From NCBI RefSeq assembly GCF_006345805.1, contig NC_043014.1, forward strand, positions 2,108,001-2,172,000: DNA of 64,000 nucleotides, read 5' to 3'. The position numbers and the translations under genes were made by a program. The number at the start of each line of letters is the position of its first letter. The first letter of the stretch is position 1. Shown here piece by piece: positions 858 through 27,500 of this stretch. The stretch is from Octopus sinensis (Eukaryota). Under the pieces are notes generated by a model. That model searched no databases and was not told where the DNA came from. It saw nothing but the letters and a program-made list of their open reading frames with translations.

Positions 858-15101
<14,244 letters not shown>

Positions 15102-16517: not shown

Positions 16518-18624
16518 CTGAAAGGATAAAGGAGTTTCACTAAAAACATGGAAATTTTCGCATCATTATAATTTCCGAACATTGATCTAAGCTATTGACT
16601 GTCTTGCTAACACCTTGCACACGCAAGTGCTACCAGTCGAGAACTCCGCACACCGGAAGCCGACAAGTGTATGGAGTCATCAGGAGAGAATGCGCGCCGT
16701 TTCGGGGCCTACCTCTCAACGGCATCACTGCGCACCGGCCCCCTCACTGATATGAGGCCCCGTTTGCTAGATCAACTGGTTATCAAATAAAGCTCAATAT
16801 TCCTCTAGCCATCGCTCATCGTCTCTTTTTAACCAAATCCAGTGGCCAGCCTATGCCACTGTAGTTTGGATATCGGTCATGGTGGTATTGACTTTACGAT
16901 AACAACAGTCGTCTCACACTGTGTCCAACAAGCCCTCAACATTCGACTTCGATTGGAAAATGCTCCGCTTTCCAGCCTGCGTCTTCATATTCCTCTATGC
17001 TGTTGAAATATACTTTGTGCATTTGATAATAAAATATATTAAACAGTGGTTAGGGCAGCGGACTCGCGGTCATAGGATCGCGGTTTCGATTCCCGGACCG
17101 GGCGTTGTGAGTGTTTATTGAGCGAAAACACCTAAAAGCTCCACGAGGCTCCGGCAGGGGATGGTGGTGATCCCTGCTGTACTCTTTCACCACAACTTTC
17201 TCTCACTCTTACTTCCTGTTTCTGTTGTACCTGTATTTCAAAGAGCCGGCCTTGTCACTCTCTGTGTCACGCTGAATATCCCCGAGAACTACGTTAAGGG
17301 TACACGTGTCTGTGGAGTGCTCAGCCACTTACACGTTAATTTCACGAACAGGCTGTTCCGTTGATTCGGATCAACCGGAACCCTCGTCGTCGTAACCGAC
17401 GGAGTGCTTCCATTCCATATTAAACACGACTCAAGAATATACCTACTTTATTGTGGGTAGATTGAAATATCGAATTCCAGTTATAAAGATTTAAGGTGAG
17501 GCTTTTTAAGTTCACAAGCTTTAGGAATTAAAGTTTGAATCATTTATTACGAGTGACAAAATTTCTGTCGTCCAGTAGAACTGTGTCAGTCAGTTGAAAT
17601 TTTGCTAAAATGACTGAAAGTATAACGATTTCTCTCTATATGGTAATGGTAGCTAGACATGCTTAGATATATTTCTTTTATAGTTTTTACCCCAACCACG
17701 ACTGTGTGCTAAAGAAGATAGCTTTCTAACCACGTAATTTCAGGCTCGGTCCCAAAGCGTGGTACCTTGTGCAACTGTCTTCTGCTATAGCCTTTCATCG
17801 CACTTCGCAGAAACTCTGGAATCCCGTTGTGCGTACATACATACATACATACATACATACATACATGCATGCATGCATGCATGCATACATACATGTATGT
17901 TTGTGTGTATGTATTTCTGATCTTGATCCAAAATTTGAAACCATTATTTTGTAAATGGAAAAAAAGCAGAGTGATAGGAGAGGAAAAGGCACACAAAAGC
18001 TGTATATTAATTTGGTTATTATTATTAATTTAGAGGAATATTTTGAAGAATAACTTCGATATACTTACCAAAAAGTGGAGGGGTAAATAGACCCGCAATT
18101 CCACTGGTGACACTTACAAAGCTGTATGCCTTTGTCGAATGTTGTATGCCGACGGATTCAGTGGTCAGCACCAGTCTGAGTGAAACAATGAACCCTGAGT
18201 GAAACAATAAACAAAGAATAGAACAACTAACCATTATATGGCTAAAGCATAAAATTAATGGAATCATAAAAGAGTCTGATAGAATGATGGTTGCGAGCTG
18301 GAAGAATTATTGGTGCGTCGGACAAAATGCTTAGCCATATTTCTTCTGGTTTTATATTCTGAATTCAGACGCTGCAGAGGTCGCTTCTGCATTTCATCCT
18401 CTGAGGGACGATGAAATAAGCACATGCCGAAAACTGGGGCCGATGCTATCGACTTAACGCTTCTCCTAAAATTCCTATTTTTTTTGCCACAATTTGAAAT
18501 CCTTAAAAATGGTGACAATGTTGTGTTGTGTCTTTATTACAGTTCCGAACAAATCAATGCTTTGTGAGTGAATTTAGTAGACAGAAACTGCGTGGAAACT
18601 CATTACATATGACATACCATATAT

Positions 18625-24491: not shown

Positions 24492-24529
<38 letters not shown>

Positions 24530-27500
24530 AAAGGATGTGTTATAATACTATTCCACATATACAAAAACAGCCATACCAACAAACCAACTTACCACCATCA
24601 TCAGCTGCCCCACAGATATCATTATGGTTTCGACACCTGGGCAGTACCATTCAATCCGGCGGTGTCAACAGCACTAAAATAAATGTTGTTCTGGAACAAA
24701 TATACCAAATAAACCACAACTTTCAAACACATTTACCCAATGTACAACTGTATCGGTAAAAAAATTCAATAAGTAAATCCATCACCAACTCCTAAATATG
24801 TAACTAAACAGCGACCAAACCTTTGAATCATACAAAAAATATTTCCTACAGTCTTCCATAGTATAATATAAAAGTGAGAGCTTAACAACCACATTCATTC
24901 AATCTAAATACAAGCAAGATTAAACACCGACTTTAAAATTGAACTACAACAAAGAAACACATAAATCTATGTACATCTGTATCGGTATTAATAGTAAACC
25001 TACAATAACTAAATTATATACTAAATAGCGACCAGTCTTTAAGTCCATACAAATAAATTATCCCACCAGTTTTCCATAGCTACTGCTATGATAAAAAAAG
25101 TGAAAGATTTATATTCAATTCTTTCCAAAACAAAACACGATTGAATTGAATTTAGCGAATAATATAATATGATAGCAATAATAAATCTCTGAACGAGATG
25201 TAAACAGTAACTGCTCGACAACGTAAAGTATACTAGCCATCTCAATATGGCTAACCACTAAGGGTGGGTGTTACTGTAGCTTTTCGCCCCAGGAGATCAT
25301 CGTCTCCAGCTGGCTTTAGGCACACTTTCTGTGCCCTTATTGTATTTACAAAGGGAGGTCATCCCTCTCTCGTCAACCTAAGTGATACGCATGGACTGCA
25401 GTTTCGAGGTATTTGCCTCTTGTCAACGTACGGTAATCACCGGTTTTCGATGAGGGGAGACCTGTTTGCAAATATCTATATAATGTTTTTCCCAGTAACT
25501 TTCCCAGTAACTTCTCCCAGTAACGAGAGAGGGATGACCTCCCTTTGCAAATACCATAAGGGCACAGAAAGTGTGTCTAAAGCCAGCTGGAGACGATGAT
25601 CTCCTGGGGCTAAAAGCTACAGTAACACCCACTCTTAGTGGTTAGCCATATTGAGATGGCTAGTATACTTTACGCTGTCGAGCAGTTACTGTTTACATCT
25701 CGTTAAGTATACTTTACGTTATAATATGGTAATTATGGGTGAAATACATTATTTCATGATTAAAAAATTAATTATAAAAACACTACATACTCATTAATAT
25801 ATATTAATCTTACAAGCTTTAATGTAAAATTACCATATTATTAAACATAAACTTACCTTTGGGTTCTTTCTGCTCAACATTTTTGTAAACATATTGCAGG
25901 GGTCGGCAAAGCGATCCAAAAACAACAATATTCAAAAGCGCCCCTGAAATAAGAAGCAAGGCTCCTCTCGGTCCATAAAACTCTATGAGGTACTCAAGTA
26001 ACATGTTACCCACTAGTATCCCCATTCCACCACCACAGTTCGATATTCCTATTGCCAAAGCACGCTTCTTTTCGAAATAGAATCCTGCAATGATTTGTCC
26101 TGTGAAAAATGATATTCCAAGTGACACACCTGAAAAAAAACAAAAAAAAAACGCTAAAATAATTCCCAATAATACATCATGTCACTTGCAGAGAATCAAA
26201 ACTTTATTTCTCTGAATTATAGGTTATGACATCAAATGCTAAATTATTTATCTCTTGGAAATGTTTCATAAAGTCTTTTGTTATAACTGTATCTGGTTGA
26301 TGAGCTTTGAATTCAGCTGGAATTGTGTAAAACCACGCAATCCTCTGCGCAAAGATACCTGCCCTATTATTTCTTTACTGCCCACAAGAGGTTAAACACA
26401 GAAGGGACAAACAAGGACAGACAAACGGATTAAGTCAATTATATCGACCCCAGTACGTAACTGGTACTTAACGTATCGACCCCGAAAGGATGAAAGGCAA
26501 AGTCGACCTCGGCGGAATTTGAACTCAGAACGTAGCGGCAGACGAAATACCTATTTCTTTACTACCCACAAGGGGCTAAACATAGAGAGGACAAACAAGG
26601 ACAGACAAACGGATAAAGCAATTATATCAACCCCAGTGCGTAACTGGTACTTAATTTATCGACCCCGAAAGGATGAAAGGCAAAGTCGACCTCGGCTTAA
26701 TTTGAACTCAGAACGTAACGGCAGACGTAATACGGCTACGCATTTCGCCCGGTGTGCTAACGATTCTGCCAGCTCGCCGCCTACTCTCTGGTATATCAAG
26801 TTGGCGAAAGTATTATTGCATACAAGCATGGGTGTATGGTAAGAAACTTGCTTCCCAACCAGATGGTTCTGGTTTCAGTCCCACTGCATGGCATCTGGGG
26901 CAAGTATCTTCTACTATAGCCTCGGGCCGACCAAAGCCTTGTGAGTGGATTTGGTAGACGGAAACTGAAAGAAGCCCGTCGTATATGTGTGTGTGTGTGC
27001 GTGTGTGTCCACCATTGCTTGACAACCATGTTGGTGTGTTTACGTGCCGTAACTTAGCGGTTCGACACAAAGAACCGTTAGAATAAGTAGTAGACTTACA
27101 AATAATAAGTCCTGAGGTCGATTTGTTCGGCTAAAGGCGGTGCTCCAGCATGGCCGCAGTCAAAATGACTGAAACAAGTAAATGAATAAGAGAATATTAA
27201 TTATCCTCGGCAGCGAATAAGGATGTGTTTGAGATCCATCTAAGACATTTAAGCAAGAGATCGATGCCAATAATCCGTGGAATTCTTCACACATCCAACC
27301 TATATCACCCAATACATCCCAAGAACTTTACCTGCAGCTGTATACAATAGTATAGCAATGTGTATGTAAGGGGTGTATGTATATAAGTATGAGGGTTTGG
27401 TGATGTATGAATAGTGGAACCAAGGCCGAGATGGCTGGTGATGTAAGTGGTATTGAGGGGAACAAATGTATACGGTGTATGTTGGTTTGGAATGCAGGTT

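What the first reader, a model, noticed from the sequence alone, without database searches (positions are those of the whole stretch)
24591..24650. Second, sequence-unrelated CBA-permuted hammerhead with compensated stems and a similar linker
Seen on the minus strand (sense to gene B, intron 3): AUGGU-A-CUGCCC-agguguc-GAA-ACCAU-aaugauaucugug-GGGCAG-CUGAUGA. Stems I and III differ in sequence from the 51.2-kb motif yet pair perfectly. The B-to-A linker is again 13 nt and similar (AAUGAUAUCUGUG versus AAGAUGAUCUGGU). No Watson-Crick stem II is evident. Inference: the same architecture in two independent repeats argues for a real permuted-ribozyme class in which the linker is structurally constrained.
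Basis: partly seen in the sequence, partly recalled or inferred. Interest (0 to 1): 0.8.

Follow-up and report, generated by a model that had tools for sequence, protein, structure and literature searches.

The report
Core-split hammerhead ribozyme in retrotransposons
The tail of this jumping gene encodes a predicted self-cutting "hammerhead" RNA whose core is wired in a way I could not find described; the same predicted wiring recurs with different letters in five other repeat families of this genome and in related jumping genes of several animal phyla, which likely explains why those elements were thought to lack the ribozyme, but cutting is untested.

Summary
The motif is real and larger than reported. 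It is the 3' end of a Naiad Penelope-like retrotransposon (matching the published Naiad_Obim/Ovul motif) inside an intron. Its block order (cleavage site, GAAA, CUGAUGA) is the 'type SGC' order of Eckert 2023, previously found only in metatranscriptomes. The 'missing' stem II exists, but its 5' strand (GACACC, 24666-24661) lies upstream, detached from CUGAUGA. A bridging helix, a hairpin and a closing helix complete a predicted four-way junction between A9 and G10.1, a link Eckert assumed unbreakable. In 1.2 Mb of random genome the order scored 13 hits versus 0 reversed and 0-2 shuffled; none had a conventional stem II. Six unrelated families here (Naiad, two LINE 3' UTRs, three non-coding repeats) pair 30 of 30 positions in stems I and II with different letters. 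Read by eye, 10 published Naiad consensus sequences from five phyla show the same layout; four nematode ones are type CSG. Core variation follows catalytic rules (N7 free, H17 never G). Against: no cleavage assay, no end pile-up in RNA reads or copy boundaries, and helix IV is weak in this family.

The parts
24522..25180 (-). 5'-truncated 3' end of a Naiad Penelope-like retrotransposon (family A), ending in a (TA)n microsatellite; a further piece at about 25713-25835
   Evidence: shared 3' end, variable 5' ends; longer copies encode RT with PADKA/YDFS/GIPMG/YIDD and stop after the thumb; motif matches the 3' ends of Naiad_Obim and Naiad_Ovul in File S5 of PMC8557442
24692..24694 (-). helix IV 5' strand (3 bp next to the junction; weak in this family)
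   Evidence: not recovered as minimum-energy fold for family A
24667..24690 (-). hairpin V, directly 5' of stem II
   Evidence: (8 of 9 positions paired in 27-30 of 30 copies)
24661..24666 (-). detached 5' strand of stem II (GACACC; first G = G10.1)
   Evidence: 14 of 400 shuffles reach it; 28-30 of 30 copies paired per position
24654..24658 (-). 5' strand of the helix bridging stems I and II (I*)
   Evidence: 5 bp, not significant alone in this copy (181 of 400 shuffles)
24639..24650 (-). block S: stem III 3' strand, A17 at 24645 (predicted cut between 24645 and 24644), stem I 3' strand
24624..24637 (-). block G: stem II 3' strand GGUGUC, GAA, stem III 5' strand
24613..24617 (-). 3' strand of bridging helix I* inside the 13-nt linker
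24598..24610 (-). half of block C: stem I 5' strand and CUGAUGA; not followed by stem II
24595..24597 (-). helix IV 3' strand, directly after A9
16673..16761 (-). third family in the window (F): same layout, in the 3' UTR of a non-LTR retrotransposon with a C-terminal restriction-like endonuclease-type end
51185..51330 (-). family B motif (stem II 5' strand 51275-51270, C17 51254, core 51209-51203) in a non-coding tandem unit of about 770 bp
51950..52095 (-). second family B copy (stem II 5' strand 52040-52035, core at 51975)

Best explanation
The stretch is the 3' end of a Naiad retrotransposon and likely folds into an active hammerhead ribozyme whose core is opened between A9 and G10.1, predicted to cut after A24645. 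Shown in sequence: order 5'-IVa, hairpin V, IIa, I*a, IIIb-UH-Ib, IIb-GAA-IIIa, I*b, Ia-CUGANGA, IVb-3', with complementary strands in every family examined. Inferred: stems II and III stack through the G12/A9 and A13/G8 pairs as in any hammerhead; the strand that normally runs A9 to G10.1 instead crosses over into helices IV and V, which would stack on each other as a four-way junction; helix I* would hold stems I and II parallel, like the 'I' helix of type SGC. Topologically this is a circular permutation of type SGC/CSG with the chain ends leaving through a new helix in the core. Inferred role: processing of tandem or read-through retroelement transcripts; because four helices (IV, II, I*, III) join the two products, they would stay bound, favouring re-ligation or circle formation over release.
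For: Enrichment over controls. Conventional stem II of 4 bp or more in 0 of 13 random-sample hits, upstream stem II of 5 bp or more in 8 of 13 versus 0 reversed and 0, 1, 0, 0 shuffled. Six unrelated families: own-family pairing 30 of 30 for upstream stem II and 30 of 30 for stem I, cross-family means 2.4 and 2.0 of 5, 1 of 720 permutations each (hand-picked intact copies). Upstream-shuffle test that includes the search for the best partner: 14, 12, 4, 35, 77 and 13 of 400, Fisher p 1.6e-4. G10.1-C11.1 is supplied by the upstream strand in 5 of 6 families. IV/V junction is the minimum-energy fold in 8 of 14 copies (B, C, C2, E, F) versus 1-13 of 200 shuffles. Same layout read by eye in 10 Naiad consensus sequences from Ctenophora, Cnidaria, Acanthocephala, Crustacea and Mollusca. 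N7 takes all four bases and N17 is A, C or U. Motif more conserved than flanks in copies chosen by the ORF end: 0.91 versus 0.82, 0.86, 0.86 and 0.88. Type SGC and CSG RNAs cleave in vitro (PMC10085705).
Against: No activity data. The A9-G10.1 link is intact in every form in the papers read, including the pseudoknot hammerhead, so tolerance of a break is inferred. In family A, helix IV is only 3 contiguous bp and the IV/V junction was not the minimum-energy fold in 0 of 3 A copies, 0 of 2 D copies and one B copy. For the window copy ViennaRNA prefers a rival pairing of GGUGUC with the linker (z -0.21; it cannot model pseudoknots). Only 10 of 30 close family A copies keep core plus stems I-III and 7 of 20 family E copies keep upstream stem II. 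Copy 5' ends do not pile up at the cut site: 0 of 29 (A), 1 of 29 (B). Raw RNA reads of a related species show no end pile-up (unstranded, mostly under 90% alike, about 6% of each run). Cross-phylum sequences were judged by eye, not computed. Beroe has only 2 bp in stem I.
Confidence: 0.75

Rival explanations
1. The fold is real but is a non-cutting or very slow hammerhead-derived structure that serves as a 3'-end recognition or stability element for the element's reverse transcriptase.
For: Position 60-120 nt from the element 3' end, also in LINE 3' UTRs, where a cut would sever the priming end; copies extend across the site with no truncation pile-up; no read-end pile-up; the core link A9-G10.1 is broken.
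Against: All catalytic positions are kept across unrelated families while N7 varies freely and N17 is never G, the pattern expected from catalysis; products would stay paired, so a cut need not lose the 3' end.
Confidence: 0.15
2. It cleaves, but as a type SGC variant without a true stem II: helix IV (or, in family A, the IIb-linker pairing) stacks on the core and the upstream helix is an accessory or inhibitory switch.
For: Helix IV follows A9 directly, as stem II normally does; a four-way junction has two stacking isomers (general knowledge); family A has an alternative partner for GGUGUC in the linker.
Against: The upstream strand supplies the usual G10.1-C11.1 pair in 5 of 6 families and is followed directly by the I* strand, as in type SGC; the linker alternative is absent in family B; helix IV is the weakest helix in A and D.
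Confidence: 0.07
3. Chance complementarity within a few repeat families, amplified by copy number.
For: Hits in the random sample come from few families, so counts are not independent; helix I* and IV are individually not significant in several copies.
Against: Six families with different letters, permutation 1 of 720, Fisher p 1.6e-4, and the same six-helix order in five phyla.
Confidence: 0.03

Closest known systems
Type-SGC hammerhead (HRIMA-1 and variants), Eckert et al. 2023, PMC10085705 (text parts 2-6 of 8 read; supplement searched for six terms)
   Same: Block order S-G-C, short link from stem I to stem II, a helix bridging the far ends of stems I and II, same core letters.
   Different: There stem II follows CUGAnGA and block C is assumed indivisible; here its 5' strand and the bridging strand lie upstream and helices IV and V sit between A9 and G10.1. 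Those RNAs were found only in metatranscriptomes, none in genomes of known organisms; these are in animal retrotransposons.
Type-CSG hammerhead (same paper; two sequences)
   Same: Circular permutation of the same non-circular wiring; four nematode Naiad consensus sequences read by eye fit CSG with an intact block C.
   Different: Block C intact and at the 5' end; no helices IV and V.
Naiad Penelope-like elements with 'HHR_core' / 'HHR_half_core', Craig et al. 2021, PMC8557442 (passages, File S1 table, parts of File S5)
   Same: Same element (motif matches Naiad_Obim and Naiad_Ovul), 3' UTR position, (TA)n target; the authors noted half cores that fit no descriptor.
   Different: They concluded Naiads lack canonical hammerheads and proposed no structure.
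Minimal type I hammerheads of Penelope-like elements and non-LTR retrozymes (bioRxiv 10.64898/2026.07.22.740005, passages; Cervera and de la Pena, Lunse et al. recalled, not read)
   Same: Near the 3' end/pLTR of Penelope-like elements and in non-coding tandem repeats; 25 full type I hits in the same 1.2 Mb.
   Different: Order C-G-S, three-way junction, often dimer-dependent; products are released through stem I only.
Pseudoknot (pistol-like) hammerhead, Zhan et al. 2024, PMC11300833 (parts 1-2 of 6 read)
   Same: Shows that stem II can be rewired through a pseudoknot while the core is kept.
   Different: A9 still leads into G10.1-C11.1; different connectivity.

Membership tests
Hammerhead ribozyme | C3-U4-G5-A6-N7-G8-A9, G12-A13-A14, A15.1-U16.1, H17 | tested here: met
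   other families
Hammerhead ribozyme | Stems I, II and III abutting the core | tested here: met
   6, 6 and 5 bp; stem II abuts G12 but its 5' strand is not linked to A9
Hammerhead ribozyme | Helix or loop contact between stems I and II | tested here: inconclusive
   5 bp in family A, not significant alone; 7-8 bp and significant in C2, E, F; 7-10 bp by eye in Acropora, Morbakka and the acanthocephalan record
Hammerhead ribozyme | Site-specific self-cleavage after H17 | not testable with these tools
   indirect looks negative or uninformative
Type-SGC hammerhead (Eckert 2023) | Block order S, G, C | tested here: met
Type-SGC hammerhead (Eckert 2023) | Intact block C: stem II 5' strand within 1-2 nt after CUGAnGA | tested here: not met
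   0 of 13 hits with 4 bp or more; U.C opposition after A9 in this copy
Rfam hammerhead families (types I-III) | Covariance-model match | tested here: not met
   no hammerhead family at E up to 10 for 24545-24760 or 16620-16830
Naiad Penelope-like element | RT with DKA motif, ORF ending after the thumb without C-terminal endonuclease | tested here: met
   translations of longer family copies; Pfam gave no hit for the decayed RT piece
Naiad Penelope-like element | N-terminal GIY-YIG endonuclease | not tested
   no copy long enough was fetched; the published Naiad_Obim ORF has it
Naiad Penelope-like element | 3' end at (TA)n with 5' truncations; match to published consensus | tested here: met

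The most novel reading that the evidence does not exclude
A seventh natural hammerhead layout, opened inside the catalytic core through a four-way junction, is a common ribozyme of animal retrotransposons (Naiads across at least five phyla, restriction-like-endonuclease LINE 3' UTRs and retrozyme-like tandem repeats; roughly 25,000 descriptor-passing copies extrapolated for this genome). Together with CSG and long-spacer SGC forms in other Naiads it would show that Naiads never lacked hammerheads but carry a family of non-circularly permuted ones, and that the module moves between unrelated retroelement classes.
Probability: 0.7. Interest if true: 0.92.

Novelty: new variant of a known kind. 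Interest (0 to 1): 0.85.

Why it matters
It would break the stated rule that CUGAnGA and its flanking stems form an indivisible block, extend non-circular RNA permutations from unassigned metatranscriptome contigs to abundant animal genome repeats, and make directly testable the open question of why Naiads 'lack' hammerheads. It places a hammerhead in the 3' UTR of a LINE-type element and, here, in the sense strand of a host intron. A new helix entering the core is also a ready site for engineering switches.

Tried and rejected
Rfam: whole window gave only microsatellite-driven miRNA matches among the 150 of 265 rows shown; targeted scans gave no hammerhead. Canonical connectivity between tandem copies was rejected because no copy has stem II after A9. 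An upstream CUGUUGA as alternative core was rejected: A6 is U and its G-A would be inside stem II. The window-specific ACCGCC/GGUGGU pairing is not kept in most copies. The Hydra-like Penelope ORF pieces beside the 51.2-kb motif (50473-50892, 48587-49183) are not its host: family B copies end at the microsatellite before them and only the window locus joins the two. Expression: no RNA holder listed; lays on three raw RNA runs of a related species and one contig set showed coverage but no end pile-ups, which is uninformative. Truncation test negative. One narrow pattern scan of viral contigs: 109 stretches, 80 loci scanned, 9 type II-like, 1 type I-like, 1 type III-like and no convincing split form. 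Pfam did not name the LINE or Penelope ORF pieces. Two of the 13 random-sample hits (L138, L272) look like chance; they were left in the counts. Families A and F had no passing copy in the 120 random stretches. Literature searches that found no description of the split form or of permuted hammerheads in Naiads or LINEs: 0 papers; 0 papers; Perreault 2011 (passages) and a 2025 review (passages) list no helix between A9 and G10.1. The 2012 hammerhead review was not held, most subscription papers are not searchable, and bioRxiv supplements are closed, so prior description cannot be excluded.

Full report
Observation. The 51.2-kb motif occurs twice. The motif is sense to, and downstream of, an MFS-family exon.

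Not chance. A descriptor for this order with stems I and III gave 12 hits in 864 kb (80 random stretches plus the window), 0 in reversed and complemented sequence and 1 in ten shuffles together. In 120 random 10-kb stretches without the window it gave 13 hits, against 0 reversed and 1, 2, 0, 0 shuffled; ordinary type I hammerheads gave 25. Eleven of the 13 belong to repeat families; about 9 per Mb extrapolates to roughly 25,000 copies in 2.7 Gb (inference; only large chromosomes were sampled).

Host element. The search with the motif had 1680 first-look candidates, 40 scored. Copies share a 3' end at (TA)n and have variable 5' ends. Longer copies encode a reverse transcriptase with PADKA, YDFS, GIPMG and YIDD motifs that stops after the thumb. 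The motif matches the 3' ends of Naiad_Obim and Naiad_Ovul in File S5 of Craig et al. 2021, so the host is a Naiad and the organism is by inference an octopus. That paper says Naiads lack canonical hammerheads but that some hold cores or 'half cores' that fit no descriptor (passages; table).

The known order. Eckert et al. 2023 name the three blocks S, G and C; this order is their type SGC, which cleaves in vitro, was found only in metatranscriptomes, and has stem II directly after CUGAnGA. They state that no known alignment has more than one or two bases inserted there and assume the block cannot be interrupted.

The new part. Here nothing pairs after A9 with the bases before GAA (0 of 13 hits with 4 bp or more). 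Instead GACACC at 24666-24661 pairs with GGUGUC before GAA. The same holds with other letters in family B (770-bp non-coding tandem unit), C and C2 (about 860-bp non-coding tandem unit), D (short non-coding repeat), and E and F, which lie just after ORF ends reading RYTWRHNQVL, ELTVPWE and VGARGF or VGCRGF (the assignment to restriction-like-endonuclease LINEs of the HERO type is recalled, Pfam gave no name). A family F copy lies in the window at 16761-16673. For one intact natural copy per family, upstream stem II pairs at 30 of 30 positions and stem I at 30 of 30, each reached by 1 of 720 family permutations. Because the partner was searched for, I also shuffled the upstream region and repeated the search: 14, 12, 4, 35, 77 and 13 of 400 for A, B, C, D, E, F (two copies were tested for A, B, D and F, the second giving 9, 16, 80 and 13), Fisher p 1.6e-4. 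The upstream strand supplies G10.1-C11.1 in 5 of 6 families.

Further helices. The strand after IIa pairs with the linker before stem I (I*), as the bridging helix does in type SGC; this, not length, constrains the linker. The bases after A9 pair upstream (IV) and a hairpin (V) sits directly before IIa. This junction was the minimum-energy fold in 8 of 14 copies tested (B, C, C2, E, F) against 1-13 of 200 shuffles, but in none of three A copies, neither D copy and not in one B copy. In family A hairpin V is kept in 27-30 of 30 copies per pair, while IV is only 3 contiguous bp.

Other animals. In the passages of File S5 that I saw (not the whole file of 54 Naiads) the same order of six helices is readable by eye in 10 records: Beroe (stem I only 2 bp), three Acropora (stem II GGCUCC/GGAGCC, one with a mismatch), Morbakka Naiad-2, the acanthocephalan and clam-shrimp records (names inferred from file order), two Octopus and, degenerate, Euprymna. 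Four nematode records read as type CSG with an intact block C, and the Paralithodes record as SGC with a conventional stem II and a long spacer. These readings were not computed.

Signs of selection and catalysis. Among family A copies found through the ORF end, the motif is closer to the window copy than its flanks: 0.91 versus 0.82 (15 of 16 copies higher), 0.86 (15 of 15), 0.92 versus 0.86 downstream (13 of 17) and 0.90 versus 0.88 next upstream (9 of 12, p 0.06) (copies are related, so not independent). Across families N7 takes U, A, C and G and N17 takes A, C and U, never G.

Mechanism. Shown: the sequence elements and their complementarity. Inferred: stem II stacks on the core and stem III as usual; the backbone crosses from A9 into helix IV and returns from hairpin V into G10.1, a four-way junction in which IV and V would stack; I* holds stems I and II together; cleavage follows A24645 by the standard G12/G8 chemistry (for that chemistry). 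Four helices would keep the products bound, so a cut need not detach the 3' end and would favour re-ligation or circles in tandem transcripts. Most genomic copies are decayed: 10 of 30 close family A copies, the window copy among them, keep core and stems I-III; 7 of 20 family E copies keep stem II in a variable G/C tract.

Against. No assay. Copy 5' ends do not gather at the cut site (0 of 29 and 1 of 29). Raw RNA reads of a related species cover the family A motif without end pile-ups and barely match family B. ViennaRNA, which ignores pseudoknots, folds the window copy with GGUGUC paired to the linker and no better than shuffles. The A9-G10.1 link is intact in all forms in the papers read.

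Novelty. Ten literature searches, Rfam and a term search of the Eckert supplement found no description of this layout or of permuted hammerheads in Naiads or LINE 3' UTRs; coverage of subscription journals is poor. An unchecked note of this scan reports a phage hammerhead entered through an extra helix in the core; it is a lead, not support. Verdict: a real, conserved new wiring of a known ribozyme; structure about 0.93 likely, cleavage about 0.75.

Noticed in passing
window, cores at 7280+, 22429-, 24075+, 30376-, 31746+, 38228+, 39108-, 39538+, 60381- and others: Many CUGANGA sites that look like ordinary minimal type I hammerheads of Penelope-like repeats; not scored one by one.
   Followed up: no
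window 48587-50892 (-): Fragments of a Penelope-like ORF with RT start (KDHK...RLINP, like the Hydra-clade ORFs seen) and duplicated C-terminal GIY-YIG region; adjacent to, but not the host of, the 51.2-kb motif.
   Followed up: partly
window about 25190-25700: A long inverted-repeat insertion of about 500 bp interrupts the Naiad copy.
   Followed up: no
L274-L293 and listing (336 matches): In family E the G/C tract holding hairpin V and stem II varies strongly in length and letters between copies while the flanks are fixed; instability or assembly error not resolved.
   Followed up: partly
File S5 of PMC8557442, nematode, Paralithodes, Darwinula and chelicerate records: Type CSG and long-spacer SGC hammerheads readable in other Naiads; several Darwinula and chelicerate records have CUGACGA cores in layouts I did not resolve.
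   Followed up: partly
window 51215-51256, reads of organism B: Substitutions at 51248 with 51215 and 51233 with 51256 would be compensatory in stems I and III; linkage within single reads was not checked.
   Followed up: no
window 24560-25080 (-): The Naiad 3' UTR holds two degenerate direct repeats of about 220 bp upstream of the ribozyme.
   Followed up: no
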